This document shows positions 4,067 through 60,879 of a stretch of 64,000 nt of DNA, one piece after another. The notes below the pieces were generated by a model. The model did no database searches, had not been told where the DNA came from, and saw nothing but the letters and a program-made list of their open reading frames with translations. The position numbers were made by a program, and so were the translations under genes. The stretch is from Eledone cirrhosa (lineage: Eukaryota), in assembly GCA_964016885.1 (NCBI GenBank), contig OZ024741.1, forward strand, positions 379,316,001 through 379,380,000, in the 5' to 3' direction. Numbering within the stretch: position 1 is the stretch's first letter; every line of letters begins with the position of its first letter.

Positions 4067-4140
<74 letters not shown>

Positions 4141-4181
4141 AAATGAAAATCCGAAGGTAAGGTAACATTCTAATCATTTAA

Positions 4182-4255
4182 TCACGACACATGTTTCACT
4201 AAGATATAGATCGATTGTGAAGCCATGATCGATTATCACTGAGCTCATCAGGTGA
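4182..4255 (-). ncRNA. Type I hammerhead ribozyme in pLTR (other copies: 8582-8655 minus; 9275-9348 plus with core mutated to CCGAUGA)
   Basis: Minus strand reads tcac-CTGATGA-(long stem II)-GAAA-catgtg-TC-gtga. Stem I is tcac/gtga and stem III is a near-palindrome. Confidence 0.8.
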
Positions 4256-5594
4256 AAATGAATTGTGTTCGAATTCTTGATATGAGGGAGAAAAAATAAC
4301 GATGTTCTCTCACAGTATTCATTCCCTCATATGGAGACACACGAGTCAGAAACACGGCGACTGCTATTAGCTTCAGTTGAGGTAATAAAAGTTTTCAGAT
4401 TTCTATCGCTGCAAAAGACGCTGGACATCAATCAAATATGTCGGGATACAGTCAGTCACAGTTAATGTGAGTGGGTACACACACATTCCACACCTACACA
4501 CACCGGCTCAGGGTCAAAGAAAGATATATACATATATATACACACATCAACACAGTATTAAACCTGTAGAGTTAGTGTGGGTGGGTACATACACACACTC
4601 ACACACACCGAAGCGATGTCCGAGAAAAACCAAATATAAGAAAACAAATATAATAAAACAAATATAAGAATGTACCAACACAGCACTCACCGAAAATTAG
4701 TTCACAAAGCAGCTGAAGCTATATTGGTCAAATCTCAATTTGACGATATAAATTGGAAATATTAGGTTAACCAACGCCACCACCCCCACACACACAAGCA
4801 CGTAAGTTCAGTTCAGTGTTCTGCTATACCTGTATAGATTGAATTGTAACATTTATGTCTTCAAATGTTTGTTATGGTATATACACATCCGAATCGTTCA
4901 AAGATGGGTATGTCCGGGTATATACACCACCATGTGAAGAGCAAGCAATAAGCTCATGTCGAACTCCTTGTGTACCGCTGTCCCATTGAGAATCCGAGTC
5001 ACCAAATCCGTGCGGGCAAGCAACCGCATGTAGGCCAGTAAAGGGCGCCGTGTAGGGTTGGGTATTGGGTAAATGCTTCCGCAAGTGCGATTTCCCGTCA
5101 TGTGGGCCAATAAGCCTTTAAGATAGTTGTTTGAGTGGTGGAGGTGTGTTATCCAACTCAGAAGGTGAAGTAAAACAACACAGGATAGTAAAATCCAAAG
5201 GATGTGTGTAGGCCCATTAATGGTGTGTCAGTATTATTGGTCAATCCGTAACAGTGAGTCCTCCATGGTTAGATGATCACGGATCAAAATCTGGGGTTGT
5301 GTTCAGTCGGTAGGAACATGACAGTCGTAATTGTGTCTAAAGGAAACGGGTACTGTGTGTAGAGTTATGCATAGAAAGCGTAATCGGTCCTAACTAAGTG
5401 TGTAATCAATCTAAATATCTACTAGCTAGGTATTCGAAAAAAGAGCACTCCGTTGTGAGAACTCCGTGGAAACAGGCCGAGTATCGTTTGTAAGTGCGCA
5501 AACAATCTTAGCCGTCTGACTACCTAAGTGTGTGACTATATGTTTATTGAGAGAACTCTATGGCTAATGTAGAGAGGGTGGAGTTAGTGGTAGG

Positions 5595-8347
5595 TTACCT
5601 TCCAAAAATCCTGCGGAAGGTTTTCGAGGTTCTATGTTGGCAGTTGCTGAAAAAATCTGCTCTCCTATTAATTAATAGGGGGCCGCCTCTAATAATATTA
5701 AAAGTTTCAACTATACATAAATTGCAGACGCCAGTGCTGCCGTTATAAGGTTGCGCTGAGCAAACTATGGACCAGGATAAGGAGTGCTCTATATTCTGAT
5801 GTTTAAGCATCCAGACTATTTCCGAAAGTGCCGTGCTATTTTTTTAATCTAATCTATTAAAGGTATGGCGGTGATTATACCATATATCCTTAAATTACGT
5901 GGCATTTTCCCCAACATACCTAAAGGTTCTATCAGGAGTGGAGACCTTACAGTCGTAGACTATGTTTTTGGTAAGGCATTTCCTAGCCATGGGGCAGGTG
6001 GCGGTGCATCTGCAGTTACATTTTTTGCTATCGACTTGGGCAGTTCCAGATGGATCACACTATCTTTGGGTTCGGGTCTCAGTTCCAGTCTGCTCTATGG
6101 GGAAATTCCCTGTGGTTGGGGAGACCCGACTCGCCTGACGTGTATGAGTCAGTTCCTCAATAGAGCTGCCATTGTTTCTGCTAAGCCTAATTCCATCTTG
6201 GGCTGTCCTATGTCTACTATAATTCATCTTAGCTATATTCTGAGCTATGTTACTAGTTGTGGAGTAGGAAAGCTTGATGGTATTTCTATTGAATATTTTA
6301 TAATATCTGTGCGATCTAGGGAAGCATTTGTCTAAGGCCCTAAAGAAAGATTAGCTATACTAGTGGTCAGGCCAGTGGAGTAAGGGAGATTATACCACAG
6401 GCCCTTTCTGGTCCGATACCTCTTGTTCCTACTAATTATATTAGAATTAACTGTCTCCCTATTAGTTTCTGGTCTATGTAACTGGAAATTGCATGTGGGT
6501 CGGCAGTGTCCCGGAGTGTCACGATTGTGTTCGGAATCGTCCCAATTCCCCAGGGCGGTGTACCCCCCGTCCGGCCATTGGGATTACCCTCGAAAGCCAG
6601 GGTTGTATCCACTATGCGTCTGCTACACCTGTCCCTATTCCTCTTACTCGACCCTCGTTCCATACTGCGTTCAACGGTAGTTTTATCGGTTCCACAATTA
6701 AGGTTACTATTAGAGTTTCCGCTGGCGTTACGTTGCTCAGACCCAGTGTTAGTACCTGGGTGGTTGTTTCTATTGGTACCAACAGCATTGCGACTAGGCG
6801 GCAGTACAACATGAAGACTATATAAATCCTCCCTCGTATCACGCCTGCTGTTAACTAGAGTGTCACTATTTAAGCCTAAGCTATCGCAGGCAATGTTGCT
6901 TCTACTATTTAATGGACGTTTGAATGAGATTCTCTCGCTATGCCCCGCGCGTTCCCAGGGCGCTATTATCGTAATTCGAGATCTTATTAATGGTATCTTC
7001 ATTGGAAGATAGTCCTGAAATTCTACTAGAGACGCTTTTGGTAATACCGTTAGTGACTATTCTAGGGTGGTTCGATTTTGCGTTGACATAGTTTAGATTC
7101 TCGTTGGGTTTGTGGTAAGGTTGGAAGAGTCCTGAATTGAGGTTAAGTGTAACATCTAGAAAATTAACTATCTTTAAATTCTCTTCAAATACTATACTTA
7201 CGTATATGTTCTTGAAGAATTTGCTAAGTTTGTTCCTCAGCCTCTCTACCATACTATTATTATGGAACGACACAGTAAACAAAACGTCGTCACGGTAAGC
7301 GCCGCCTCAGAGGTGGGGCATTTCCGCTCCGAAACAGTCACGGAGTTAAAGGCCCACCAGATCCGTCACCTGGGCCGAGTCCTTGGATCCAATGTTGATG
7401 TCGAAATTGTCTGACCAATACTTCCTGGTCCACAGGTCACTGTTGAATTCAATTAAGGTTTTCCTAGCTAGGAGAATAATGCTATTTTCCTCGGATGTAA
7501 GGTCAGTGTTTAAGCTAGCAAAGTTAAGGGCCCTACCTAGAAGAGTTGGAGAGATTGAAGAGAAGGAATTAGAGTTATCGAACTGTATAAACTTAGTGCT
7601 ATTCTTACTCTGCGATTTCTCAAACCAGTTAATTACCTCACTAGTTCCTGGCCACAACTTCAGCTTCGATCTCCTAACTAGAGTGGGGATTATTTTATCA
7701 AGGATGTTTTTAATAACGATTCCTATGTCCGACTTCGAAGGGGCTATCAGCCTGACAGGTCTTAATGATTCAAATTCCTTCAGCAAAATCCTCGGGGTTC
7801 TAGGATGGAAGGGTTCGGTTTATTCTTCAATACCCAATTTAATCATGACGCTATTGGCATCCGTGTTAATTAAATCCAGGTTGGCCCGTTTAGATTTTCT
7901 GTAGCTTTTCCTAAGTTCTCTAGTTATCAAATCATCATAAGTTACTCTACCCATATCGTACAAGTTGTTAGTCTTATCTGCGTGCACCAAAATGCCAGTC
8001 GAGTTCTTTAATTTTACTAGATCACCATTCAGTCGTCTCAGGTAGCTTTTTCTCCTGAGTGGTTTTTTCCTAAATTTAAGGTTGGACATTATGTTAGATA
8101 TTTCAGTCTCAAATTCTTCCAAGTATTATTTGTGTGGTGGATTTCTTCTGGATATGAATATTTCCTCGATGCCGCGCGTTCCCTCCCTGTGGTGGTTTGT
8201 TGGTGTTCCTCTGTCGAAGTGGAAGGCTTTCCAACGCATTCTACGGACAAAGGAATCCGATTTACCTATGGCCAACCTTGTGAATTGTTTTATGTTGGGC
8301 AAAGGGATGTCCTTAAGTGAAGAGTTCACCGAGAATTTCTCCACCAT
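5595..8347 (-). pseudogene. Naiad-type PLE polyprotein (RT + GIY-YIG endonuclease), disrupted
   Basis: Motifs in order: SLKDIPLP..RRMRWKA, HADKTNNLY, VRLIAPSKSDIG, GSKDSAQVTDLVGL, YRDD (about 7290), VNFLDVTLNL, SNHP, WYN.PY..IFNRNTIKLSYS (about 6400-6260), CNCRCTATCP..KC..KNIVY..YVG, CNLC..E. Several stops and frameshifts. Confidence 0.88.
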
Positions 8348-9617
8348 ATTCCTTGCTTAACAGCATTAAGTGCTCAACAAAAATAGGAGCGGTAAGTTGT
8401 TATAAAGTAAGGTGCATTATTGGTTGTGTAAAATGGTCCGATAATTTTATGTTAGCAATATTAAGTTTTCCAAGCTTTTGTATATCTCCAATTCCATTCA
8501 AGGGAGCAGCTAGTTGATGTAAAACGGATTATAAGTATCAAAATGAAAATCCGAAGGCAAGGTAAAATTCCAATCATTTAATCATGACACATGTTTCAAT
8601 AAGAGATAGATCGATTGTGAAGCCATGATCGATTATCACTGATCTCATCAGGTGAAAATGAATTGTCTTCAAATTCTTGATATGAGGGAGAAAAAATAAC
8701 GATGTTCTCTCACAGAATTCATTCCCTCATAGAGACACACCAGTCAGAAACACAGCGATTGCTTTTAGCTTCAGTTGCGGTCATAAAAGTTTTCAGATTT
8801 CTATCGCTGCAAAAGACGCTGGACATCAATCACCATTTCGGTGAGTGCTGTGTTGGTACATTCTTATATTTGTTTTATTATATTTGTTTTCTTATATTTG
8901 GTTTTTCTCGGACATCGCTTCGTTGTGTGTGAGAGTCTGTATGTACCCACCCACACTAACTCGACAGGTTTAATACTGTGTTGATGTGTGTATATATATG
9001 TATATATTTTTCTTTGGCCCCGAGCCTGTTTATGTGGATGTGGAATGTGTGTACTGACTCACATTAACTGTGACTGACTGTATCCCTACATATTAGATTG
9101 ATATCCAGCGTCTTTTGCAGCGATAGAAATCTGAAAACGTTAATGATCTCAACTGAAGCTAATAGCAGTCGCCGTGTTTCTGACTGGTGTGTCTCCATAT
9201 GAGGGGATGAATTCTGGGAGAAAAAATAGTCATTTTTTTCTCTCTCATATCAAGAATTGGAAGACAATTCATTTTCATCCGATGAGCTCAGTGATAATCG
9301 ATCATGGCTTCACAATCGATCTATCTCTTATTGAAACATGTGTCGTGATTAAATGATTGGAATTTTAACTTCCCTTCGGATTTTCATTTTGATATTTATA
9401 GTCCGTTTTACATCATCTACCTGTTCCCTTGAATGGAATTGGAGATATACAAAAGCGTGGAGAACTTAATATTGCTAACATTAAGTTATTGGACCTTATT
9501 ACACAACCAATAATGCACATTACTTTATATATATATATATTATAAAGAAAATAACGGGAGGCTGACTGGTGTAAATCCTTGAAAAGTTTATTATACTATG
9601 ATCATTTCAATGACCGG

Positions 9618-13851: not shown

Positions 13852-13978
13852 ATATATATATATATCATTTGTTGATTGCTTTATATCAGTTATAAAAATA
13901 TTTGCTTGTTGTAATAGAACTTCTACACATATATATATATATATATGTATGTATGTATATATATATATATATATATAT

Positions 13979-14641
13979 AATCTAGGAGCAGTTTAGGTAT
14001 GATACATTTTATTACTAATTATATCTAAATGTTTCTTCTCTCTTCATAATGTATTTTTAACTCTGATACTGGTTCAGTCTAATTCAACCGGATTGGTCTG
14101 TCCCAGTCATTCATTGAGCAACATCGGTAAGGTTGACACCATTAACTCACGGTTGGGTGTGGATGCATTCATGTATATGTGTGTGTCCGCATGTATCTGT
14201 GTGTTTCTAAATATATTGTTCATAACTCCCTCTGGTCGAGTAATCTTTGAAGTGTGGTGACTGGTGGAAAGTTGCCATTACTCATACTTCTCCCCTCCTT
14301 CACCACCTCTTCTACGGCTTCGATATAAATACCCCCTCCGCCTCCGTGGTATTTTCTTCGGGGTTATAAGAGGCTTAGCTCTGTTTCTCGACCGTTATAT
14401 CGCGTGACTATCTCCCCCTCCGCCTTTTGGGATTCTTTCTCACGTCGTGTAGACGCGTTCTTGAAGCTAGTAAAATGAGGTATCCTCTTGATAAGTCGGC
14501 AGACCTCGCAAAGACTCTATATCTTTATGATGTATTGTTTTTGTTTATGCCACGAAACTACGTAGTCGAGGAATCTAGGAGCAGTTTAGGTATGATACAT
14601 TTTATTACTAATTATATCTAAATGTTTCTTCTCTCTTCATA

Positions 14642-14643
<2 letters not shown>
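13979..14643 (+). mobile_element. Non-coding HHR element with terminal direct repeat (period 593 bp), retrozyme-like
   Basis: 13979-14050 is identical to 14572-14643. HHR at 14483-14572 reads tcctc-TTGATAA-stem II-GAAA-ctacgtag-TC-gagga. Confidence 0.75.
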
Positions 14644-14672
<29 letters not shown>

Positions 14673-14675
14673 CAA

Positions 14676-14741
<66 letters not shown>

Positions 14742-14742
<1 letters not shown>

Positions 14743-15154
14743 AGAAGTTAGATTTAAATTGTCGGGATATTACATAGAAATAATTTTCTCTGTTTTTTTC
14801 TACGATTTTCTCCGAAAAAGCTATAAGTTTATGAAAATTACTGTCTTAAAATAAAAAGTCCTTTATTGTATGTATGTATATGTATGCATGTGTATGTATA
14901 TATATATATATATTTATATGTATATATATCTGTGTGTGCGTATGTATATATATGAATATATTCTTTTAACAATATATACATATTTTTATAATGTATGGTA
15001 CCTTTGAAATATGTATAATGAAATAAATATAGTTTTATAAATATAGTTTCCATTTGTTAATATACCGTATTTTTACTACAATAATTTGTTGAGTGCAATA
15101 TATCAGTTATAAAACTATTTGCTTGTTGTATCCCAACAATTTAAATAGAACTTT

Positions 15155-15367: not shown

Positions 15368-15420
15368 ATATATATATATATATATATGTATATACATACA
15401 TATATATATATATATATATA

Positions 15421-16675
15421 AAGAATTTATATCTAGTAACATTTATATACATACAGATGCACATCAATGCTAGCAAATATATAGGTTTTGTCTTAGTAAC
15501 ATTGTGATTCAATGCATGGGGTTGCAGAACAATAATATGAGAGACGTAAGATAAGAAAATTATAAAATTATAAAAAAATTATAAAATTGACTTACTTACT
15601 AAAATATCAGTTCCACCTAATTAGTTTCTGGAATGGAGTAAATATATTTTCCGAAGAACATATAAAAAGCCTTCCGTCGTCAGGAAAGTCTCTTTTCATG
15701 TAAGTTTCCAGGCATAGCGAGGACTCTGGAAACTTATTAAAAAAATAATTCAGTGGAGAGGAAATAGCGAAGCGTGGACTGAAATCCCAGCCATTGAGAA
15801 AATCACTGCCTCTACGTTTGTAGCAACTTCTAAAAGAATCAATCACGTGACATCGAGGTCAATCAGTGGAAAGCGAGTTGTTAATAAGACAGCGGCCTGC
15901 CTACTACTATAGCAGCAGTCATGGCCAATATTGCTCGACAAATGAATTGGAGATAATTATAAAGAATTTATATCTAGTAACATTTATATACATACAGATG
16001 CACATCAATGCTAGCAAATATATAGGTTTTGTCTTAGTAACATTGTGGTTCAATGCATGGGGTGCATAACAATAATATGAGAGACGTAAGATGAGAAAAT
16101 TATAAAATTATAAAAAAATTATAAAATTGACTTACTTACTAAAATATCACTTCCAACTAATTAGTTTCTGGAATAGAGTAAATATATTTTCCGAAGAACA
16201 TATAGAAAAGCATTCCGTCGTCACGAAAGTCTCTTTTCATGTAAGTTTCCAGGCATCGCGAGGACTCTGGAAACTTATTAAAAAAATAATTCAGTGGAGA
16301 GGAAATAGCGAAGCGTGGACTGAAATCCCAGCCATTGAGAAAATCACTGCCTCTACGTCTGTGGCAAATTCAAAAAGAATCAATCACGTGACATTGAATT
16401 TGCCACAGACATAGAGGCAGATTTTCTCAATGGCTGGGATTTCAGTCCACGCTTCGCTATTTCCTCTCCACTGAATTATTTTTTTAATAAGTTTCCAGAG
16501 TCCCCGCTATGCCTGGAAACTTACATGAAAAGAGACTTTCCTGACTATGGAATGCTTTTTTATATGTTCTTCGGAAAATATGTTTACTCCATTCCAGAAA
16601 CTAATAAGTTGGAAGTGATATTTTAGTAAGTCAATTTTATAATTTTTTTATAATTTTATAATTTTCTATCTTACG

Positions 16676-16683
<8 letters not shown>
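15421..16683 (-). mobile_element. Tandem (period 541 bp) plus inverted non-coding HHR element, retrozyme-like
   Basis: 15421-15855 is repeated at 15962-16395, and 16403-16683 is an inverted copy. HHRs at 15610-15688 (-), 16150-16229 (-) and 16536-16616 (+) give consensus ctttc-CTGACGA-cggaatg..cattcca-GAAA-ctaattag-TT-ggaag. Confidence 0.8.
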
Positions 16684-16707
<24 letters not shown>

Positions 16708-16774
16708 TTATTTAGAAAACTGCTCTATATTATATTTTATCTGATTTTATCTGTATATATATATATATATATAT

Positions 16775-16810
<36 letters not shown>

Positions 16811-18482
16811 GTAGAAGATCTATTTAAATTGTTGGGATACAACAAGCAAATATTTTTATAACTGATATAAAGCTCTCAACAAATTATTGGAGTAAAATTA
16901 CGATATATTAACAAATGGAACCTATATTTATAAAACAATATTTATTCCATTATACATATTTCAAGGGCACCAAGTTAAATTATGGTGTGCTTTAATCAGA
17001 TAAAATATAATATAGAGCAGTTTTCTAAATATATATTTACATACCCTTAAAGAATGGGACCATTTCTGTTGGAAGCTCCCGGATAGTGGGGTTATAAATT
17101 TATTTATACGATTATGCAAATTAGTGTCGGATATTTTAAAATCACAGTAGATTTAAATAAGCCGTTGGGTTATGGAGAAAGAAAAAGAGAAAAAAGAGCA
17201 AACTCTAAGAGGATAATAAGAAAAATAAGAAAAAGAGAGAGAGAAGAAAAAAAGATAACAGTAATGAGAAAGAGAAGGAGAAAGCTCTAAGTGATAGGTT
17301 GTTGTATTAGCTTAACTTTTGAGATGAAGTGAAAGAATAAATATTTAATGGTTGAGTAAAGAAGAGTAAATAAGCGTGAATGGAAAATACATAAATAATA
17401 GGAGAATTTTAACCGTTGTTTAAATATGATTAAATGTTTAGTTTCTCAATTAAATTATTGAGATCTATACATTAAAAATTGAGATCTATATATTATTAAA
17501 AAATCTATACATTATTAAAAGATTATATTCATATATATACATACGTACACACAGATATATATACATATAAATAGATATATATATATATATACCTACACAT
17601 ACATACATATACATACATACAATAAAGGACTTTTTATTTTAAGACATAGGAATTTTCATAAACTTATAGATTTTTCGGAGAAAATAGTAGAAAAAACGGA
17701 GAAAATCGCTTCTATGTAATAGCGAAACAGCGTGAAGGAAATTAAGTTATTTATTTATATTAAATATTACAAATGTTAAGATATTAAAGGAAATGTTAGG
17801 TTATACAAACCTTATGTTATTATACAAACCTTATATTATTTAATAAATTTTATAAGTTTTATATCTAATAAATCCATCTGTTATGTAGTTGTGACTGTTA
17901 TTATATCAGTGTGTTTATCATGAACCTTAAGAAAATCCTTATAAACGAGTGCATTCGAATTGTATGAATATATATATACACACAATCCCCAAATAGATAC
18001 ACATAGACGTACTTACACATACAGATTGATATGCATCACATATACATATATACATACACACACACACCCACATATATATATATATATATTTACACACATA
18101 TATATCTATATATAGAGAGAGATAAAAATACAGTACATAGTATAATTGAAGTACATAATATATACAATATAAAATAGATTAAAATAAAATAAAATAAAAT
18201 AAAATAGAAAATAAAAATGAATTATATTACGATTTGGAAATATAATTATAAGCAATATAACTTTAAAACAATATAATTTTTAAAAAGTATTATAGAATAT
18301 TTCAAGATATAATTTTAAAATAAGAATATGTTTAAGAAATTCAGCATATAAATTAAAATTTTGTTTATATAATATTTAATTCTCAGTATGTTTAACTTAA
18401 TTTTATAGCCATAAGAAAAAGAAAGAGAAACTTTCAAAAAAAAGATTTTCCCCTTATAAGAGCTTTTAGTATGTTTCTCGAG

Positions 18483-24563: not shown

Positions 24564-26785
24564 GTGTGTGTGTGTGTAGGAAAATGATTCCTTTAGTAGG
24601 AATATTTTGGAATGAACATATTTTCCATACTTATTCGTATTTGTTCTGTTGTATTGTCAGTGCAAACGTATGTTAAGGTTTATTTAGTTCGGGTTTTTTA
24701 TTTTCTAAAGTAGAAGGTGTTATGTGTGTGTGTATGTCATATTATGGTGTTGACATAATGTATATTAAACCATATTTAATGCTGGTCTATATTTTTGAAT
24801 AAACATATTTTCCTTATTTATTCGTATTTGTTCTGTTGTATTGTTAGCGCAAAGGTAAAATGTGAGGACTTGGAATTTGGGTGTCTTATTACTTGCGCAA
24901 ATGTCTAGATGTGCGCTTAGTGGTATGTGTCTCGTGGTCGGATCTCGTAATTGTTGGCGATGAACTGTCGTTCTGTTTCTGAGTGTGAGTTTAGTTTCTC
25001 CTATATAAACTTCATTGCACCCTTTACATTTAATGGCATGAACTAGATTTTTTAATGTGCAAGTGAAGTGATTTTTTACAGTAAAATATTGTCCTAATTA
25101 AAATGTATACGTGTTGCCTTCAATGAGGTGAGTGCAGGTTCCACAATTAGAGCGACCACATTTTTTGATACTTGGTTGTGGGTTTGTAGTAAGTAATTTG
25201 GCATCGGAGAGTAATGTTTTCAGTGATTTCGGTTGTCTTTTGCTTTTGATTATTTTGTGTGTTTCAAGGGCTTTTTTCATTCTTGGGTTTTGTTTTAGTA
25301 GTGGGATGTTCTTGTGAATAGTGTTGTAAGCTTCCGCATTTCTTGGGTTGTGTGTTGAGATATATGATAGAATATTGGACGTACCTTGAATTTGTTTCTG
25401 TTTTCGTAATTCATCAATGCCTATTGCTTTAGCCCTTTCTATTCCATTATTTATTAGTAATAGTGTGTACTCTCGCTCGAGTAGAATTTCCTTTAATTCT
25501 TGAAGTCTTTTATTTCGCGTTTCATAATTGGAGACAATTGTGCAAATTCTTCTTGCTAGGTTAAAAGGAATGTTCGTCTTCGTGTGCTTTGGATGGTTGG
25601 AGGTGAATAGCAGATATTGTTTGGAATCTGTTGGTTTGTAGTGTATGTCTGTTTCGATATTTGTGTCTTTTTTTAAGTTTAAGTTATCCAGAAATAGGAG
25701 TTGTCGTTGGCTGTATTACATTGTGAATTGGATGTCGTTATTGATGCCGTTTATTAAGTTTTTGAAATCCTTCAGTTGGTCGAGTGTGTTGGACCAAAGA
25801 ATGAGACAATCATCCAAGTAGCGTTTCCAATTCACTGATAAATATTTGAGGAAGTTCAATCCGTATTTTGATTTGGACTGTTCATATATCTGGACTTCTA
25901 AGTATGCCATGACTAAGTTGGTATAAGTTGGAGTGGCTTTTGTACCCATCGCAGTCCCCGATATTTGCTTCTAAGTATTGCCATCGAAATCAAAAAAGTT
26001 GTTCTGTGAGATAAATTTTAATCCCTCGGTGATGAAGCTTTTTTCTATTCTGTTTAGGTATCTCATTGGGATATTTCTCTAGCCAGAATCCTATTGCTTC
26101 TAGTCCGTATTGGTGTGGGATCGTTGTGTAGAGATTCACTACATCGACAGACACAATAATAGTGTCGTTGTAGACATGTTTGGGGAGGTGGTTTAAGAGG
26201 TCCAGATCGTCTCTTACAAGGTTTGGTATGTGTTTGAGAATTGGTTTCAGTAGTATGTCTATAAAGTTGCTCAGTCTGTGTGTTTCACATTGTGGGCCCG
26301 CTACAATTGGTCTTAATTTTTCTCTATGGGAGTATTGTGTGTTCACGCAGGCTGACACGGATTGTTTACAGCATCGTTAATTATTTTACACTTGTGGATC
26401 TTCGGAAGTCCGTAAAGGTTGCTGGTTTTGTATTCAAAATTTGGTAAATAATCGCGTCCCTTTTTAGTTAAGTCTTCCTGGTATCGATAAATCAGTGTGT
26501 TTAATGTGGTCACTGTTTTTGATTGCTGGTAGTTTTTTACTCTTTCATAGTAATTAGTATTTTGTAAGAGAGAGAACATAGAATTTTTATATTTTTCTCA
26601 TCTCTAGCTTAAAGTAACATTCAGAGACCAACCAAATGGGAGAAAAACCACAGACCCTCCATCTCAACTCTACTTTTGAAAAGCTGAAGAACTGCGAAAC
26701 CGGTAAAGGAACCAAATAAATATATATATTTTTTTTAAAAATAAGACTCCAGTTGCATTTTCGATTTCATCTTTTTTTCTTTATA
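23281..26785 (-). mobile_element. Neptune-type PLE, 5'-truncated, with inverted pLTR at the truncation
   Basis: 23341-23515 is an inverted repeat of about 26610-26785. (TA)n flanks. U3-A8 HHRs at 23418-23455 (-) and 26672-26709 (+). Confidence 0.87.
24765..26580 (-). pseudogene. Neptune-type PLE RT + GIY-YIG ORF (partial, disrupted)
   Basis: LYGLPKIHK, LRPIVAGP, DVVNLYTTIPH, MGTKATPTYTNL, WKRYLDDC, YKPTDSKQYL, CGRSNCGTC zinc knuckle and a YIGET..L..R GIY-YIG motif. Confidence 0.87.
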
Positions 26786-28796: not shown

Positions 28797-30420
<1,624 letters not shown>

Positions 30421-30435
30421 TTATATATATATATA

Positions 30436-31653
30436 TGAAAATAAAGATCCGAAGGCATGGTATAAATGTCCTATCATTTTAGTCACGACACATGTTTCAA
30501 TAAGAGATATATCGATCGTGTAGCCATGATCGATTATCACTGATCTCGTCAGGGGAAAATGAATTGTCTTCAAATCATTGATATGGGGGAGAAAATTAAC
30601 GATGTTCACTCACAGAATTTAGTCCCTCATATGAAGATCAAGCAGTCAGAACACAGCGACTGCTATCGTTTTCAGTTAGGGTCATAAAACTATTAATCTC
30701 TCAATAGCTGTAAAAGGCGCTGGACATCACATCTGTAGAATTACAGTCGGTCACAGTTAATGTGTGTGGGTACACACACACTCACACACACCGACGCGAG
30801 CTCAAAAAAAGATATATACACATACCAACATAGCATCAGATCTGTAGAACTATAGACAGTCACAGGTAGTGTGAGTGAGGACACACACACTCAAACACAC
30901 CGATGCAAGGTCAAAGAAAAAATATAAATATACCAACATAGTATGCACCGAAAGATAGTTTACAAAACAACAAATGTTAGACCAATATAAAATTTTTTTG
31001 TTTTGTAAACTAACTTTCGGTAAATACTATGATGGTATATTTATATTTTTTCTTTGACCTTGCGTCGGCGTGTGTGTGTACTCACTCACACTAACTGAGA
31101 CGTCTGTATTTGTACAGATTTGATGCTATGTTGGTATATGTATATATATCTTTTCTTTGAGCTCGCGTCGGTGTGTGTGAGTGTGTGTACCCACACACAT
31201 TAACTGTGACCGACTGTAATTCTACAGATTTGATGTCCAGCGCCTTTTACAGCTATTGAGAGATTAATAGTTTTATGACCCTAACCGAAGACGATAGCAG
31301 TCGCTATGTTCTGACTGCTTGATCTTCATATGAGGGACTAAATTCTGTGAGTGAACATCGTTAATTTTCTCCCCCATATCAAGGATTTGAAGACAATTCA
31401 TTTTCACCTGACGAGATCTGTGATAATCGATCATGGCTACACGATCTATCTGTCTCTTATTGAAACATGTGTCATGATTAACATGATTGGACATTTATAG
31501 CATGCCTTCGGATTTTATTTTGATACAAATACTCCGTTATACATCATCTAGCTGTTCCCATAAATGAAATTGGAGATATACAAAACCGTGGAGAACTTAA
31601 TATTGTTGACAAAATTTATTAAACCGTATGACACAACCAATAATACACCTTAC
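30436..31653. mobile_element. pLTR-only foldback related to the 4139-9528 Naiad family
   Basis: Arms are inverted about 30985 and homologous to 4139-4700 and 8400-8830. HHR at 31404-31477 (+) reads tcac-CTGACGA..GAAA-catgtg-TC-atga, with a minus-strand copy at about 30483-30556. Confidence 0.85.
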
Positions 31654-31674
31654 TATATATATATATATATATCC

Positions 31675-35745: not shown

Positions 35746-38361
35746 ACAACCTAATATATTCTTCTTATGTTTTGGTGAGTATTTCAGCATTACAATGATA
35801 TATTAACTGTTTTAGAAGTTTGCCTTTTGTACGATTATTTTTAGTGTCTTGGCTAATAATGTATCCAAGTATCCTATAAGATGATCAGCTGATCAGCCCC
35901 TTCCGATTCATCGTGCATATTTCAGTAACCTTTTATGACAATCATAACTCTAAATATGTTTCATTACTTAGCATTTAATTTTAGCTGCAGATTTTAAACT
36001 CTCTAGTATTACAACATCACCTCGTTTTATATATATATTACGACATACAAAACTTAATGGGAAACTAGTTACGGGTTAAGTCTCTGAAAATGTAAGGGAG
36101 TTAATATTCCATGAACCTAATGAAAAAAAAAATGAATAGCAAAAAGCATATAAAGCATTCATTCCATTCATACCATTTGATCGATCTAAACATTTTGTTT
36201 AATTGTACCTTCCGTGATTAATTGTTTTCATTTATTATCCATGTAGATTTCACGAAGATGTTATAGAATCAATATATTTCCTGAACCAATAATTTTCTAT
36301 ACATTATATGCAGTGTAGAGATTAAAAATTGTATATACACAATCCGTTACACTGAGTATTAATATATTTATGAATCCATTTCGTTATTTATCTACTAAAC
36401 TACATGTGCTCATTCATAACAACAATACCAGAACATCTTCTGGTGTATTCTGTATGTGGAAGATCGGTAGAATTGTGGATTTCTTCGGGCTTTCTTTATC
36501 AAAATGTGTTTAATTTAAGATACCAGATTGTTAAACATGACAAATATTCAAAAAAAGCTGACCCCTTGCAGTAAAAGATTACAGCTAATTAAAAATAGAT
36601 TTTAGTCAGTTTGTTGGTTGGTTCCTTCGTGTTAGTTGGTTCCTTCGTATTATCTTATATATTAATTTTTACAATAACTTAAATGTCAGTTTCTATTTGA
36701 TTATGCTAGTCAATATTTTTTCTCTTAATATTACTTTGCGAATCAACCGAGTTTAATATCATTTAAAAAATAACAGATAAACTCCAGTAAGATATTAACA
36801 TATATATTTTAATATAAAATCATAGACGACCTTCTGATAGTACTTTTTAATACATTGGATTTAGATATAATAAGTATATTCGATTTTAACTTGAAATTAC
36901 ATATGCAAATTCCATTTCATATCAACTTTTCTCAAAAAGATAATGCATTTTGAGATGTTTTTCGGGTATAGTATCTCATGTAATTTATTTATACAGATGT
37001 ATATAATTTATGGCTATTTACTAATATTTAGGGAGACATGTATAAGTGCTGAACGTTAGCTTAAGGAGTGAACGATATTTTTTGTTTCTCGCTCCACTGG
37101 ACCGATCATACATAATATAGTTCTATCAGAGACACAGCACGCAATGGCCGTATTAATTTGGATCTTAGGACCACGTGAAGAAAAGATACGCTATACTGTA
37201 TATAATTGTTCATAATAAATGTGGTTTATGTTAGTATGTACACCTCATTATGTTTTTTTAAATAATTGTCTCATGTTATAGATATTGATTATGTGATGGT
37301 CTAAACCAACGTGATATGAGAAAAGAAGATTCAGTCCCTTTTCAAAATGATGTATCCAATAGACTCGCTAATGAAATGTTTTATGAAATGTTTTATGTCT
37401 CTGCATATGCTACCTCTCATGACTATACACTCAAGATATCATAAATCTACATTTTTCAGATTGAGATTAAAGTGCCTTTTGCCCCTTGACTATGTAGTTT
37501 TGTGAACTTCTGTGTAACTAAATTATTGAAAAAATATTAGCAGAATGGACATTCCTGGAAATTATCTTTTAATCAATTGTTATTGCATATAGCAGATTTA
37601 CTAAATATATTGAACAAACTAAAATGTCGCAAAAAGACATACATATCGTTCCCGAAGTAAAAAGTAAAACGATCTAAGAGTAGATATTAATATTATATAA
37701 AATGGAACTACGTAATATTTATATCAAAACTTTCATTTTTTAATTAAAATGTTTAATAATTAAAATTACTCATTTTGGGAAGAGAGCAGCACTCAGCTAA
37801 TGTAATTAATTATAAAGGCTTGAAGAGTTAATTAAAATTGTTCTAAATATTGAAATTGCTTATTTTTTGGTCATTATTTAATTAAAAATAAACAGCAGAA
37901 TTGCCCAACAGAAAAGGAAAATGAAGAAAACCTTTCTTCTATCTGCGGCAATAACTTTTGTCCTGAACTATAATAATCTGAAATAACTCATAATATGAAA
38001 AATCATCAACTTTCCTTTAATTTATTTATGAAAAGTTTAACTACCATTTGCGAACAATTTCCTTCTATGATACATTATCATTACTCATCTCTTGTGCATT
38101 GCTTCTCATTATTATGAATGAGCATCCTAGAGTTAATTAAAACACAAATGCTTTTCCGATATACATTTGTAGTATTAGAAAAAAACATCTCTGTAGAAAA
38201 CAGTAACATAAAAAATTAGATTGTGAAATGAATTCATCGTTTATAAATTGTATATATAGGCATATGTTGGTCAAGTATATTATCCGAAATATCCTTAATT
38301 TATCAATCTATTAATATGGCATATATTCGATACAGATTTTATGCAATAATATATATATATA

Positions 38362-38888
38362 TTGGTAAACGGTATAGCAAATGCTGACAAATTGTTCAAA
38401 GTGAAAAACAGTTTAATTACGAGTAAGTGAGAATTAGTCATTGTATTGGTTAGTATTCAGTTTTGGTTTTAAGTTTTACCGGTTGCGCATTTCTAATGCT
38501 CTTCAAAAATACTTTTGAGATAGAGCGTCCGTGATGTTTGCTCTGATCAGATTAGTTTTGGGAATTCTACCTGTTTTTATGTTAAAAAAGTGGCTCCAGC
38601 GTTATTAAAATAGGTTTTGCGCCAATTCGTGTTGCAAAAATTATTGTGGCCAAAACAATTTTGATTGGTCGGTAGAGGTCATGTGAATGTAAAAAATTGA
38701 TTTTGCGCCAAATGTAGGTTTGTGTCGGCTGACTGAGAAATGACTCTTTCACAACAAATATGTGTGTCTGTGTGTGTGTGTGTTTGTGTGTGTGTGTAGT
38801 AGTAGTAAAGTGTTCGTTGTTGTGATAATGGTTAGCAGGGATGTGTATGCGAACCGCAGCCTGTTGACAGTTCAAATGCCTATTAAGA

Positions 38889-38947
<59 letters not shown>

Positions 38948-39059
38948 CAGAGTAATTCTTGGTAGAGGAATGGTCAGTAGGAATGTGTCTGTAAGTGAGT
39001 GGGGGATATTTTAACATGTTAAAAATATTTTTCAGCTCTTGTCTTATACGGAGAAGTGT

Positions 39060-39121
<62 letters not shown>

Positions 39122-39150
39122 CTCTTTGTATGTTAATGTACGTGTGTGTA

Positions 39151-39188
<38 letters not shown>

Positions 39189-39322
39189 AGAATGTGTGTG
39201 TGTGTGGGTGGACCAGTATTATTTTCCTGGTAAAATGGTGTACATTATTCGATATTTTCAGTAAAATCGATTGTCTCAATAGAACATCAAAAACCTTAAT
39301 AATAAAAGGTGTGAAATGATAT

Positions 39323-39361
<39 letters not shown>

Positions 39362-40255
39362 CTGTTGCACCATAGAACATGTGTGTTTACGTATGTCGTG
39401 TTTATATGTGGGTAGAGATGTGTGCTGATGTAGGTATGTATGTTGACGTGTGTACGTTGTGGGTTCGTCTTAGGGAGAAGTGTTTAGACGGGGTCCGTAT
39501 TTGTTAATAAAGTAAGATTCCTTGCTGATGCGCTGGGTGTGGGTGGCATTATCTTTAAATTTGTAGAGTGGAAAGATTCTGAAGTTGGGATGATTTTGGA
39601 CGGCACAGGTATCAATGTATTCACTCAGTGGTATTTTCCTGTATTCCCGTATTTTAATTTGGGATCTATGCACAGTCATGCGTTGGCGGAGGCTGTGTTT
39701 GGTCTGGCCTATGTATTGTTCTCGACAACCTGAGCAAGTTAATACATATATTAGATTTCCGATGCACATGTGAAATTGTGTTTTACTATAAAACGTCGTC
39801 CTTCTTTGAAATAGAATTCCCAACCCTCAATTAGGTTGATGCAAATTCCACAGTTGGGTCTATCGCATTTTTTTACTGTGGCTTTCGTTGTTGTGGTTGG
39901 CAGTACTTTGTCATGTGTTAGGATGTTTTTCATTGACTTAGATTGTATTTTGCTCTTTATGATATCGTGTGTTCGTAGGATTTGGTTCATTCTATGATCC
40001 TTTTACAACACAGGAATATTCTGGAGGATGGTGTCAAAGGCCTCATTGTTGAGGTGGTTGTGTGTGGAGATGTATGGAAGAGCTTTTAGTTTCGGTTCAT
40101 TTACTTTAGGGTGTCTAAGGTCCTGTCTAAGGTACACATACACACTTCTCCGTATAAGACAAGAGCTGAAAAATATCTTTTAACATGTTAAAATATTCCC
40201 CACTCACTTACCAGACACATTCCTACTGACCATCCCTCTACCACGAATTACACTG

Positions 40256-40326
<71 letters not shown>

Positions 40327-40828
40327 TCTTAGTAGGCATTTGAACTGTCAACAGGCTGCGGTTCGCACACACATCCCTGCTAACCATTATCACAACAACG
40401 AACACATTATTACTACTACACACACACATATTTGTTGTGAAAGAGTCATTTCTCAGTCAGCCGACACAAACCTACATTTGGCGCAAAATCAATTTTTTAC
40501 ATTCACAAGACCTCTACCGACCAATCAAAATTGTTTTGACCACATGAATTTTTGCAACACAAATTGGCGCAAAACCTATTTTAATACCGCTGGAGTCACT
40601 TTTTTAACATAAAAACAGGTAGAATTCCCAATACTAATCAGATCAGAGCAAACATCACGGACGCTCTATCTCAAAATTATTTTTGAAAAGCATTAGAAAT
40701 GCGCAACCGGTCATATTTAAAACCAAAACTGAATACTAACCAATACAATTACTAATTCTCACTTATTCCTAATTAAACTATTTTTCACTGTGAACAATTT
40801 GTCATAATTTTCTATTCCATTTACCAAT
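38362..40828 (-). mobile_element. Neptune-type PLE 3' fragment (GIY-YIG region 39470-40130) with about 700-bp inverted terminal arms
   Basis: 38362-39065 is the reverse complement of 40134-40828. Motifs CDRPNCGIC and LIYVLTCSGCREQYIGQT..LRQRM..HR. Variant HHRs at 38474-38510 (-) and 40679-40716 (+). Confidence 0.88.
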
Positions 40829-40889
40829 ATATAATAACTTGTGTGTTACACCTCTATTCTTTCATATATATTTATATATATATATATAA

Positions 40890-42746: not shown

Positions 42747-43203
42747 TTAATATAGATGAGATTCTACAGGACTAGAACTGTTTCATTCATTAGAAATCAT
42801 CAGGAATCTGGGTATCAACAAATAAAAATGGTATTTATAGGTCTCTACAAGTGGTAGGAGAGGGTGGGGAGTGGGATGGGTGTAGGTCATTGGTTGATAG
42901 AAAAGGGAATTCATTAAAAGCTAATTCTACAAAGCTATAGTTTATTTTTATTTATTTATGTTTTTAGAGTAACAAGGGCAGACATAATTCTATAAACAGG
43001 TTCCGGATGGCATACCATTCCTTGTCATTAAGTTTCTCTTAAGCAAACAGATGTCTATAAGATCAGTGGGGGGGTCAGTCATGGTCGATAGAATTAAAGA
43101 AAAGGGAGATTCTTTAAAAGCTAAAATCATTAAGGTTCTACTAAGTGACAAAGGTCTAGAGAATTCTGTAGACAGATTCAAAATACTGAGTGCATATCTT
43201 ACA

Positions 43204-44988
43204 TATCGTTTATGAGGTAGACCCACAGACCTACAATAAGCTGGCAAAAAATACCATCACGACCACCTACAAAAAGGTAATAGAGAGGGCACTGACTGAG
43301 ACAAACGCGGCCGGAAAAGAAATCGCCAAGTCCCTTAAATTACACGACCGAACCGAACCTTTAAGGGTAAAGACCCCGCACTTTACCCTGAATGACCATA
43401 AGGGAAATTTCTTCAACAAACCATCAGTCAGACTTATCAACCCCACTCGTTCTGACATCGGCTCTATCAGTAAGAAGATAATGGATAGAGTTCTACCATC
43501 ATTGCGGGCAGCCTCACCACTTCCACTCTGGAGTAGAACATCTGAGGCAATATCATGATTCCAAGAATTACCCGATAAACACCAAACTCGCTTCCTGCAA
43601 CTCGACATAGAAAACTACTATGCCTCTATCTCGGAGCCCCTCCTGAAGGACGCAATTAACTTTGCCAGGAATTTTACCACCATTACCGATGCTGAGCAAG
43701 TGGTTATCCGCCACGCTCGTAAGACCTTTCTATACCACGATGGATCTTACTGGATCAACAAGAAATCTCAGACCCCATTTGACGTTAGCATGGGGGCGAG
43801 TGACTCGGCTGAAATTAGCGACCTTGTGGGCCTGTACATCCTACATAACATGAAGAACCTCTTTACCGGCCTAACGGGAGGTTTATACCGAGACGACGGC
43901 CTCTTCGCCCTGCATAAGGTTAACCCCAGAACCACCGATGGGCTTCGGAAAAACTTAAGCTCTTTATTCTCTAATCTAGGATTTAGTATAACTATAGATT
44001 CTAATTTGACTAGGGCCAACTTCTTAGATGTCACTCTCGACCTAGATACTTCCCTCTATTACCCGTACCACAAAACTAACGAGTCCCTTAAGTATATTAA
44101 TGTTAATTCAAACCACCCCCAAAACATCACTGATAACCTTGTAAAAAGCGTCTCTATTAGAATATCTGGCCTCTCCGCCAACAAAGATATTTTTAATGCA
44201 TCTGCCTCCTACTACAATGACGCCCTCGCCCGTAGCGGATTTAAAGATAAGATAACTTACCTAGAAACCACCGCAAGATGCAGAGGAGGAATAGACATAG
44301 GCAGATCAGCTGGTACAACCCTCCCTTCAATAGAGAGGTATCTACTCCGATAGCTAGGATTTTCTTCACTTTACTGAAATTACACTTCCCCATACAACAT
44401 AGGTACTACACCATCTTTAATAAGAACACTATAAGACTGTCTTACTCCACCACACCTAACCTAGCTAGGAATATAGCCAACCACAATTCTAAATTAAATA
44501 AGCCAACCACCTCCGAAACCAATCCCCGGACTGGGGTTCTATGTAATTGCCTAAATAAGGAAGCATGCCCACTTGAAAACAAATGCCTCACAAATGACAT
44601 CGTATACAAATGCGATGTCATCTCAGGCACCGAGGATTGCAAAAAAACTTACATCGGCATGACCTCCAACAACTTTAAGACCCGTTGGTATGCCCATACC
44701 CACTCCTTCAGAAGACCGGATAAATCAAATCAGACAACACTCGCCTCCTACGTTTGGGACCTCATAAGGAACTCCACCCCCTTCACGCTTAAATGGAAAA
44801 TACTCCAGAAAGCGCGCTCTTACAACGGAGGACACATGGGCTGCGACCTTTGTATTTCAGAGAGCTACGAAATTTTATTCGCCAAGGGCCCGCTACTGAA
44901 CAAACTCTCTGAACACTGCCCGAACTGCATGCACAAGAACTTTGCAACTTTCAAACACTTTAAGCCAGTGTTAAAGCCCGATGGCTAA
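43204..44988 (+). pseudogene. Naiad-type RT + GIY-YIG ORF (one stop at 43556, one frameshift near 44270)
   Basis: VRLINPTRSDIG, MGASDSAEISDLVGLY, LYRDDG, NFLDVTLDL, SNHP, WYNPPFN, CNC....CPL..KC, YIGMT..FKTR, CDLC..E. Confidence 0.92.
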
Positions 44989-51384: not shown

Positions 51385-52444
51385 TGTAGATAAATCTACC
51401 AAAAGTTTACGGTAGTGTCCAATCCGTATGAAGAACTCAATGTAATCCGGATATCATGAAAAGAAGAGATGCATTCAAAAATCACTTTCGGTGAAAGATA
51501 AACGGAAAACAGAGTCAAGATAAATTATTAAAAAAATAATGAATAAACAAAGAAACAGTTCCTTATATTAAACAAAAAAAGTTCATTAGTTTACAATCGT
51601 TTCTAGGACATATATGTGTTAGAATTGGTATGCATATTCAAAAGATCTATGTACAAAATTATACAAACTATCAGAGGGAATATACATACCTTCACATATA
51701 TATGCTGTCTTCAGAAATAATGATGCTTGTTTATTGATAATAACAACAATTCAATACAATAGGTCTGTTTGAGAAAAGATTTTGAATAGACCAATGAAAT
51801 AGAGAATGAGATACATAAAAATCTATCAAGAAAATACAGTTAGGTGTGTATATATGTATGTAAATACGCTCACAGATGTGCATAAATGTGTATGCTCATA
51901 TGTATACGTATAGTGAAAAAGTGTATGTAAATATAAAATTTAGGGCTAATGTATCTGTATGTCTGTAATCAACAGACGGAATAGATACATCATAAGTATA
52001 TGAATATTGAGGCGCTCACATAAATACGCCCACACACACTTACATTTAGATGGAAGTAAAAGAGGTAAGGGAGTATAGTAATTAAAGGAAAGTGTCAAAC
52101 TCGACATACTTATAAAAATGTATGAATAAATTAGAAATAAAAAAATGTTTATAGAAGGAAAAAATTCAAGAAAAGAAGACAAAAAAGACAAAAAAGGTGG
52201 GGGGTACATACATACACAGACACGCATGTCTCACAAAAGAAACATAAAAAAAACATAAAAGATAAAAGAGAGACATAAAATATACATGCTTATATACACA
52301 CGCACATTTACACACCCATACGTTCGATACGTACATACATACACACACACATACACATACTTACACTCACGCATATTGACCTGTTTGTATGCACACGCAT
52401 AAAAATAAGTAAAACATATACCCATACATATATATATACACACA

Positions 52445-52508
<64 letters not shown>

Positions 52509-52635
52509 TACCCATGTATATATACAACCACACACACACACACACTCAGACATACATATATATATAGACATACCCACACATATATACACAGTCAGACACA
52601 TATACACATATATACACATACATACACACATCTCT

Positions 52636-52690
<55 letters not shown>

Positions 52691-53097
52691 TACATATGTA
52701 TTTTTATACTCACATACATACACATTTACATACATACACACTTACATATACATACACACATCCACGCTTACATATACATATAATAATAGTGGGTGGGGGG
52801 GATTAAATTTATTAGTGGGAAATAGTAAATATATAGGTTTCAAGGAACATAGAATACTAACCTGCAGTTAAAGTTTTATATGTGTTTACTTAGTGGTATC
52901 AGTTTTAGAAATGGTATTTGTAAGAAGGAAAGCCAAATTATGTATTTTAATATAAGTAGAATATTAATTATAGGTTAACTAAAATAAAAATAGTTAACAT
53001 ATTAATTTCTAAGGTGTATACTAATTAGGTTTATAATATTTAAAGCGGAATTTTGAAGTTAAACAGTAGTAGAGTATTAATTATAGCTTAACTAAAT

Positions 53098-53136
<39 letters not shown>

Positions 53137-53262
53137 AGAGATGTGTGTATGTATGTGTATATATGTGTATATGTGTCTGACTGTGTATATATGTGTGGGT
53201 ATGTCTATATATATATGTATGTCTGAGTGTGTGTGTGTGTGTGTGGTTGTATATATACATGG

Positions 53263-53295
<33 letters not shown>

Positions 53296-54220: not shown

Positions 54221-54225
<5 letters not shown>
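51385..54225. mobile_element. Large non-coding foldback (arms about 51520-52680 and 53100-54225) with long-stem-II HHRs
   Basis: Arms are near-perfect reverse complements. HHR at 54025-54161 (+) reads attattt-CTGAAGA-...-GAAA-ctatcg-TA-aaataat, with a copy at 51585-51721 (-). Confidence 0.85.
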
Positions 54226-54286
<61 letters not shown>

Positions 54287-60530: not shown

Positions 60531-60879
60531 TAGGGATGTTTTGTTTACATTAAAAAAAAATTCAGTAAGCTGTAATTAGAATTACTTCCATGTGCTAATC
60601 TATATATTTCAATATATGCCCAATTACTTTTATATGTAATTATTTAATTATTAATTAATGTTATACAGTTAATATTATATAAATAAACTAATATCAACAG
60701 TTATGTCAATCTTTTTCTTACAGTTAGTACAACATATATGTTCTATATTATAATAGGGCCTAATCAATTCTTAAATTCTTTAGTATAGTTAGTAAATTAT
60801 AATTGCCATACACAAAGTTCAATCACGAGAAAAGTAAAGAGGGAGCTATACCCACCCTTCCAGTATATATGTCAGATCA

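What the first reader, a model, noticed from the sequence alone, without database searches (positions are those of the whole stretch)
13979..14643. Third unit-length element (593 bp) whose 5' end starts about 5 nt after its own ribozyme cleavage site
Seen: a 72-bp identical terminal direct repeat. The left end begins at AATCTAGG, about 5 nt downstream of the predicted GUC cleavage site (14567) of the HHR at 14483-14572. That core is UUGAUAA, a U3-A8 variant. Inference: this is what insertion of an RNA whose 5' end was made by self-cleavage would look like, so the variant ribozyme was probably active in vivo.
Basis: partly seen in the sequence, partly recalled or inferred. Interest (0 to 1): 0.75.

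Follow-up and report, generated by a model that had tools for sequence, protein, structure and literature searches.

The report
Two-start hammerhead retrozyme copied by Penelope
This is one of thousands of copies of a young, non-coding jumping repeat carrying a predicted self-cutting RNA; its copies end at two fixed points but start almost anywhere, so it was likely written into TA repeats from an RNA circle by a Penelope-type enzyme, and its start near the predicted cut site is not proof of cutting.

Summary
In detail: an exact 72-bp direct repeat 593 bp apart, a type I hammerhead with a U3-A8 core, and a left end 5 nt past the predicted cut. The interpretation mostly fails. The element belongs to a young family (6,847 exact ribozyme cores genome-wide). 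Copies end at one of two fixed sites 163 nt apart, joined to (TA)n, while 5' ends lie all round the unit and arms run up to several laps. The 72-bp repeat is lap overlap, not a terminal repeat. In 173 arms the cut site was crossed 213 times; 6 stopped at +1..+15 (5.6 expected). Genome-wide there is a real twofold excess of 5' ends just past the site (37 against 17), peaking at a TA microhomology at +10, not at +1. Over half the insertions carry an inverted second arm; 47 of 47 resolvable pairs use one start site on each side, and both arms share private variants. A Penelope-like element in the same window follows the same rule. Verdict: a non-LTR retrozyme, likely copied from a circular RNA by Penelope machinery priming at both ends of a break. 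Expression, cleavage and the partner enzyme are untested.

The parts
13929..13979 (.). left (TA)n target tract; the 5' junction shares 1 nt (A13979) with the element
13979..14050 (+). 72-bp first copy of the direct repeat = start of a second lap round the unit (unit positions 593, 1-71); 5' end at +5 from the predicted cut
   Evidence: family comparison
13980..14572 (+). one full 593-nt unit (unit position 1 = 13980); no ORF over 48 codons from ATG on either strand; predicted circular fold z about -5
   Evidence: family units 590-598 nt
14050..14054 (+). start site A (unit 71-75): commonest 3' end of family copies, joined to (TA)n
   Evidence: 1,941 exact junctions
14055..14217 (+). 163-nt stretch between the two start sites, the equivalent of the Penelope 'tail'
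   Evidence: comparison
14212..14220 (+). start site B (unit 233-241): second fixed 3' end of family copies, joined to (TA)n
   Evidence: 660 exact junctions for one variant
14324..14329 (+). TATAAA box, a possible internal promoter element (untested)
   Evidence: motif match only
14478..14576 (+). predicted type I hammerhead: U3-A8 core 14488-14494, 59-nt stem II arm, palindromic stem III 14557-14566, predicted cut after C14567
   Evidence: invariant core in 211-213 aligned unit copies; 0 of 43 core and stem sites polymorphic against 51 of 550 elsewhere, p = 0.04
14572..14643 (+). second copy of the 72-bp repeat = first-copied part of the element, ending at unit 71 (site A)
14642..14734 (.). 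right (TA)n target tract; no target-site duplication can be read

Best explanation
This is a 665-bp insertion (one 593-nt unit plus 72 nt) of a young non-LTR hammerhead retrozyme family in a (TA)n tract, likely reverse-transcribed from a circular RNA by a Penelope-like enzyme that started at a fixed internal site and ran slightly more than one lap. Shown: family size, two fixed 3' ends, scattered 5' ends, multi-lap arms, head-to-head pairs with one start site per side, shared private variants, invariant U3-A8 core. Inferred steps: (1) tandem copies are transcribed; (2) the hammerhead, perhaps as a dimer through its palindromic stem III, cuts out monomers; (3) monomers are ligated to circles in which stem I is predicted to be blocked; (4) a Penelope-like RT/GIY-YIG protein cuts (TA)n and primes at site A (unit 75) on one DNA end and at site B (unit 238) on the other; (5) each RT runs round the circle by strand displacement for a variable length; (6) the cDNA ends are joined to each other (head-to-head insertion) or to the target (single arm, as here) with short microhomology or filler.
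For: Fixed 3' ends in samples not chosen by their 3' end: 27 of 28 distinct main arms end at unit 75 or 238-240, the other at 80; 19 of 19 uncensored copies chosen by their 5' end stop at 71-75 or 237-241. 5' ends spread over the unit; 68 of 167 uncensored arms exceed one unit, 7 exceed two. 56 of 98 site-A insertions have an inverted arm upstream; of 65 head-to-head junctions 47 had both outer ends in the A or B class and all 47 were A+B (10 ran off the fetched DNA, 8 had another end or a third piece). Laps within an arm differ at 0.8% (113 arms) and the two arms of a pair at 0.8% (50 pairs), against 3.2% for arms of different pairs; 48 variants private to an insertion are present in every lap or arm of it. 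In 14 of 47 pairs both arms run past the other's start site. The Penelope-like element at window 4130-9540 has (TA)n at both ends, a hammerhead in its pLTR and an inverted arm with a tail of about 130 nt; in its family 9 of 9 pairs resolvable among 30 loci have the tail on one side only. Published: Penelope RT starts at two internal sites, cuts and extends both strands, and is predicted to be a dimer (PMC11167929); tail on one end of inverted insertions and (TA)n bias (PMC8557442; PMC3846280); retrozyme circles in animals (PMC7229834).
Against: No expression, circle or cleavage data. Hammerhead stem I is predicted only in isolation (probability 0.94-0.97 with up to 100 nt upstream and 12 downstream; 0.4 or less with more context), and near 0 in 14 of 14 other copies tested with 110 nt upstream, so cleavage is uncertain. 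No sequence similarity between the unit and the 3' ends of six Penelope-like elements of the window, and none of 19 non-family 5' flanks is a recurrent Penelope sequence, so the partner is not identified; the comparator family is older (about 8% from the window copy). Gene conversion could explain part of the lap and arm identity. In vitro, the anole element showed no difference in start site between strands and did not need its ribozyme. Eight of nine Xenopus retrozyme dimers did not cleave in vitro.
Confidence: 0.72

Rival explanations
1. One reading: the template was a linear RNA whose 5' end was made by self-cleavage, the RT ran off that end, and a few bases were trimmed on joining. For this copy it needs a dimer or longer RNA cut at the upstream site but not at the downstream one.
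For: Twofold excess of (TA)n-joined 5' ends at +1..+15 over -15..-1 (37 against 17, p = 0.009; background expected about 17); 9 of 49 listed loci start at +1 to +3.
Against: 9 of 49 at +1..+3 is what an even spread over 15 positions gives; the mode is the TA microhomology at +9/+10; +16..+30 is also raised (28); 213 crossings against 6 stops in the sample; 7 of 16 copies starting at +1..+15 stop on a second or third lap, against 71 of 219 arrivals, so no first-lap excess as linear monomers would give. RT pausing at the ribozyme or at the ligation junction explains the excess equally.
Confidence: 0.12
2. The template is an uncut linear read-through transcript of a tandem genomic copy; the ribozyme is a passenger and no circle is needed. 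Penelope machinery still primes at the two sites.
For: Predicted blocking of stem I in context; the anole element uses unprocessed RNA in vitro; tandem source copies with 2 to 5 units exist (listing).
Against: Lap differences do not recur across insertions apart from one gap-placement artefact at unit 109-112; 48 private variants are shared by all laps or arms of an insertion, 9 of them in one locus, which points to a single monomer copied repeatedly; the core and stems are free of polymorphism while the rest of the unit is not.
Confidence: 0.13
3. Head-to-head copies arise by fold-back self-priming (as proposed for rotifer Penelope elements) or by LINE-type twin priming on one linear RNA, and the tandem parts by DNA-level duplication.
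For: 5 of 47 inner junctions join positions within 15 nt of each other, 2 of them perfect palindromes (2.5 expected); fold-back model in PMC3846280.
Against: 42 of 47 junctions join unrelated positions, with 1-8 nt microhomology in 24 and filler in 17; only 1 A arm and 4 B arms stop near the partner's start site, which LINE-type twin priming (recalled, not from a call) would predict for most.
Confidence: 0.03

Closest known systems
Metazoan non-LTR retrozymes (Cervera and de la Pena 2020, PMC7229834: passages and parts 2 and 4 of 6 read; Li, Clavereau and Pollet 2026, 10.64898/2026.07.22.740005: parts 1-3 of 5 read)
   Same: Non-coding tandem units each with a type I hammerhead, thousands of copies, no LTR/PBS/PPT, strongly self-paired predicted circle, co-occurrence with Penelope-like elements; unit length within the 51-972 bp range given by Li et al.
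   Different: 593 nt is above the 170-400 nt of the expressed examples; U3-A8 core and a 59-nt stem II arm; ribozyme predicted blocked in the circle, unlike most metazoan examples; the parts read do not describe fixed start sites, (TA)n targeting or head-to-head pairs; expression and cleavage are not shown here.
EN+ Penelope-like elements: pLTR, tail and inverted copies (Craig et al. 2021, PMC8557442, passages; Arkhipova et al. 2013, PMC3846280, passages; Frangieh et al. 2024, PMC11167929, parts 1-2 of 4)
   Same: Two internal RT start sites, tail on one side only, 5'-truncated inverted copy upstream, partial tandems, (TA)n targets, no readable target-site duplication.
   Different: No ORF (non-autonomous); tail of 163 nt instead of 30-40; strict one-site-per-side pairing (47 of 47), whereas in vitro both strands used the same sites; both start sites end in AT-rich bases matching the target, whereas the anole site had no homology to the target.
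U3-A8 hammerhead core variants (Perreault et al. 2011, PMC3088659, passages)
   Same: Same compensatory pair, reported in nature and as active in vitro.
   Different: Here fixed in 6,847 copies of one mobile family, with 0 canonical C3-G8 and 6 C3-A8 copies found; activity in this scaffold untested.

Membership tests
non-LTR retrozyme | type I hammerhead in each repeat unit | tested here: met
   fold and core; conserved in all aligned units; no Rfam match
non-LTR retrozyme | tandem copies with two or more ribozymes | tested here: met
   multi-lap arms; cores spaced 587-597 bp apart in the listing; the window copy itself holds only one ribozyme
non-LTR retrozyme | no protein-coding capacity | tested here: met
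   longest ATG-ORF 48 codons, longest stop-free stretch 85 codons in the unit read as a circle
non-LTR retrozyme | no true LTRs | tested here: met
   the direct repeat varies from absent to several units among copies; PBS and PPT were not searched for separately
non-LTR retrozyme | expressed as linear and circular monomer RNA | not testable with these tools
   no RNA holder listed; indirect support from variants shared by laps
non-LTR retrozyme | self-cleavage | not testable with these tools
   needs an assay; folding predictions are mixed
Penelope-mobilised non-autonomous element | two RT start sites with the tail on one end of inverted insertions | tested here: met
   47 of 47 pairs; 9 of 9 in a Penelope-like family of the same genome
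Penelope-mobilised non-autonomous element | microsatellite (TA)n targeting | tested here: met
   173 of 183 arms with a visible 3' end are joined to TA-rich tracts (these loci were chosen by such junctions); 19 of 19 copies chosen by the 5' end
Penelope-mobilised non-autonomous element | sequence homology to the pLTR of an autonomous partner | tested here: inconclusive
   no similarity to six Penelope-like ends in the window or in 19 flanks; the rest of the genome was not searched
plant-type LTR retrozyme | type III hammerhead in fixed LTRs with 4-bp target duplications | tested here: not met
   type I fold, variable repeat length, (TA)n flanks
LINE/SINE-type insertion with twin priming | 3' end at the RNA end and sense arm stopping at the second priming site (definition recalled) | tested here: not met
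   1 of 47 A arms and 4 of 47 B arms stop near the partner site; both arms overrun it in 14

The most novel reading that the evidence does not exclude
One circular retrozyme RNA is copied by a Penelope dimer from two fixed start sites at once, one on each end of a double-strand break in (TA)n, each RT displacing the other's cDNA lap after lap. The tail and inverted pLTRs of Penelope elements would then be the general footprint of two-ended priming with asymmetric start sites, and the small excess of 5' ends just past the cut site on every lap would be the scar of the ribozyme-made junction.
Probability: 0.35. Interest if true: 0.75.

Novelty: new member of a known kind. Interest (0 to 1): 0.48.

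Why it matters
How Penelope-like elements form their tandem and inverted structures is called unresolved in the papers read, and mobilisation of animal retrozymes by them is proposed there from co-occurrence and pLTR similarity. This family gives thousands of young insertions (about 0.3-0.4% change per copy) with countable junctions: two start sites, one per side of the target, both arms from one template. That makes a specific model testable in the existing Penelope in vitro assay. The particular claim of the finding, that this copy's 5' end records self-cleavage, is weak, and other notes of this scan report the same architecture in other families of the genome, so the element is one example rather than unique.

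Tried and rejected
Rfam: no match at gathering score in the window, only microsatellite-driven miRNA hits at E up to 10. Sequencing runs: no RNA holder listed. Four of the six runs were laid; one holds a 621-nt contig that is a permuted full unit, but a tandem DNA repeat gives the same and the run kind is unknown, so it was not used. Partner search: no similarity of the unit to Penelope-like 3' ends in the window above shuffles; non-family 5' flanks are unrelated host or other repeats. Target-site duplication: unreadable in (TA)n. Idea that U3-A8 is decay of this copy: rejected. Idea that the 72-bp repeat is an LTR: rejected. RNA-editing lead: A>G 24 against T>C 21 among variants shared by laps (p = 0.03 given base composition), 10 against 8 among private ones (p = 0.10), 14 against 42 among single-lap variants: suggestive only. 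Two hairpin probabilities were asked for wrongly chosen pairs and were ignored. The primary paper on exchanges of the 3-8 pair was not held. Papers PMC7151607, PMC6155905 and PMC12910113 (passages) added nothing used. Look-ups of earlier findings near the window and by sequence were empty. Supplements were not read; the retrozyme life-cycle figure (S9 of PMC7229834) and the preprint's tables may bear on the novelty of the insertion model.

Full report
Observation. The window holds an exact 72-bp direct repeat, 13979-14050 and 14572-14643, offset 593, between two (TA)n tracts. A type I hammerhead can be folded at 14478-14576 with core UUGAUAA, a 59-nt stem II arm, a palindromic stem III and the predicted cut after C14567; the constrained fold is 1.1 kcal/mol above the minimum. 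The left end equals position +5 after the cut (+6 if the first A is target). Rfam does not recognise the motif. Below, unit position 1 = 13980, so +1 = unit 589.

The family. The genome (G000, 3.0 Gb) holds 6,847 exact copies of the core with flanks, 0 with the canonical C3-G8 pair and 6 with C3-A8. U3-A8 is therefore the family state, not decay. In 196 aligned segments the core is invariant in 211-213 unit copies, except 3 single changes; 0 of 43 core and stem positions are polymorphic at 5% or more against 51 of 550 elsewhere (p = 0.04). The U3-A8 pair is a known natural variant reported as active in vitro (PMC3088659, passages). Units measure 590-598 nt (68 laps) and have no ORF over 48 codons.

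3' ends are fixed. Among the 28 distinct best full-length matches, 18 end at unit 75, 9 at 238-240 and 1 at 80, all into (TA)n. Exact junction counts are 1,941 for site A and 660 for one variant of site B. Of 20 distinct copies picked by their 5' end, 19 had a visible 3' end and all 19 lay at 71-75 or 237-241. The window copy ends at 71.

5' ends are scattered: the test of the finding. I took the first 100 of 1,941 site-A places and the first 30 of 660 site-B places, all on contig C1, and mapped them. After removing duplicates, 173 arms had a TA-joined 3' end, 6 ran off the fetched DNA. Median length was 496 nt, 68 of 167 exceeded one unit and 7 exceeded two. The cut site was crossed 213 times. 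Stops at +1, +1..+5, +1..+15 and +1..+30 numbered 1, 1, 6 and 11 against 0.4, 1.9, 5.6 and 11.4 expected; arms under 30 nt were left out. The 72-bp repeat is simply the overlap of an arm that ran 665 nt from site A.

A small excess does exist. Genome-wide pattern counts of 5' ends joined to (TA)n, minus strand only because plus-strand rows are redundant, gave 17 for -15..-1, 37 for +1..+15 and 28 for +16..+30; 31-nt windows gave 63 round the cut and 26 at a control site, unit 410-441. About 17 per strand are expected from the mean stop rate. 37 against 17 has p = 0.009, 37 against 28 p = 0.32. Among the 49 distinct loci listed (counted by hand), 2 start at +1, 7 at +2, 15 at the TA microhomology at +9/+10 and only the window copy at +5; in the upstream window 12 of 30 loci likewise sit on a TA. 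Seven of 16 copies starting at +1..+15 are on lap two or three, against 71 of 219 arrivals, so the excess is not a first-lap run-off from linear monomers. Scaled to all classes it amounts to roughly 3% of passages (my estimate). A few cut templates, pausing at the ribozyme, or pausing at a ligation junction would each explain it. For this copy, cleavage as the cause of the 5' end is possible but no better than even.

Two arms, two start sites. 56 of 98 site-A insertions carry an inverted arm directly upstream. Of 65 head-to-head junctions, 47 had both outer ends in the A or B class and all 47 were A+B; 10 were cut off by the fetch and 8 had another end or a third piece. Independent choice would give about half A+A or B+B. 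Inner junctions mostly join unrelated positions (42 of 47 more than 15 nt apart), with 1-8 nt microhomology (24), blunt (6) or filler (17); only 1 A arm and 4 B arms stop near the partner's start, and in 14 pairs both arms overrun it. The two arms differ at 0.8% (50 pairs with 100 nt or more overlap), as do laps within an arm (113 arms), against 3.2% across pairs; lap differences do not recur between insertions except for a gap artefact. 48 variants private to an insertion stand in all its laps or arms. The simplest reading, an inference, is one monomer template copied repeatedly from two sites. Gene conversion is the main alternative for part of this identity.

The likely motor. The window holds several broken Penelope-like elements with weak GIY-YIG and RT matches, below Pfam's cut-offs. 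The one at 4130-9540 has a hammerhead in its pLTR, (TA)n at both ends and an inverted arm with a tail of about 130 nt. In 30 loci of that family picked by the tail arm, 9 showed the opposite end and all 9 stopped at the short site. Published work describes a 30-40-bp tail on one end of inverted Penelope insertions and (TA)n bias (PMC8557442, PMC3846280; passages), and shows in vitro that a Penelope protein cuts and extends both strands from two internal start sites, with no strand difference and no need for the ribozyme (PMC11167929, parts 1-2 of 4). The signature matches, but I found no sequence link to a partner.

Is the ribozyme active? Unknown. For: invariance, the compensatory core, a stem III palindrome that can pair between two copies (-12.9 kcal/mol), and the need for a way to make monomers. 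Against: stem I is predicted only with little flanking sequence, is near zero in the circle and near zero in nascent folds of 14 of 14 other copies. Blocking in the circle would suit a stable template; blocking in the nascent RNA would not. These models ignore tertiary contacts.

Known and new. The element fits animal non-LTR retrozymes (PMC7229834; preprint 10.64898/2026.07.22.740005), where Penelope mobilisation is proposed. Searches of the held library returned no paper whose listing or passages describe paired start sites in head-to-head retrozyme insertions; most subscription journals and all supplements were outside my view. Earlier notes of this scan report the same two-armed pattern for other families of this genome; I saw them after and they are not independent support.

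Verdict. Observation confirmed; interpretation partly supported at best. A new member of a known kind, whose value lies in junction statistics that make a two-ended Penelope priming model testable. Interest 0.48.

Noticed in passing
window 4068-9540: Broken Penelope-like element (minus strand; RT and C-terminal GIY-YIG fragments at about 5613-7963) with a hammerhead in the pLTR, a direct pLTR 4.4 kb away and an inverted arm with a tail of about 130 nt; resembles the Hydra clade by my reading, not tested by phylogeny.
   Followed up: partly
window 30346-31670: Head-to-head, ORF-free pair related to that pLTR (74-84% identity), again with the extension on one side only.
   Followed up: no
window 13160, 19239 and 28400: Three further hammerhead-like motifs (CUGAUGA or CUGAAGA cores, palindromic AT-rich stem III) just upstream of or near (TA)n; the 13160 copy has a broken core.
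   Followed up: no
window 24906-26376, 39566-40170, 59195-60549 (minus) and 43190-44988 (plus): More Penelope-like RT/GIY-YIG fragments of at least two types; the window is dense in them.
   Followed up: partly
window 13916-13929 and 14735-14757: The two flanks of the target microsatellite are inverted copies of the same short end (AACTTCTACACA), so the (TA)n tract lies between two ends of another repeat family that also abuts (TA)n.
   Followed up: no
unit position 173 (window 14152), loci L048, L059, L068, L074, L089, L118: Strongest 5'-end hot spot of the family (7 of 163 stops), several being 67-nt site-B arms, at the foot of a predicted hairpin; unexplained.
   Followed up: no
L141 unit 20, 25, 35; L048 unit 48; L120 unit 42: Five of the ten private A>G variants shared by laps fall in the hairpin just past the cut site, three in one insertion, as RNA editing would leave.
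   Followed up: partly
G000:C1:50595795-50600066: A two-armed insertion with five ribozyme cores on one strand and three on the other, the longest seen in the listing.
   Followed up: no
window 51520-54226, 38356-40833, 57314-57926, 15393-16813: Several more large inverted repeats, probably further head-to-head insertions of other families.
   Followed up: no
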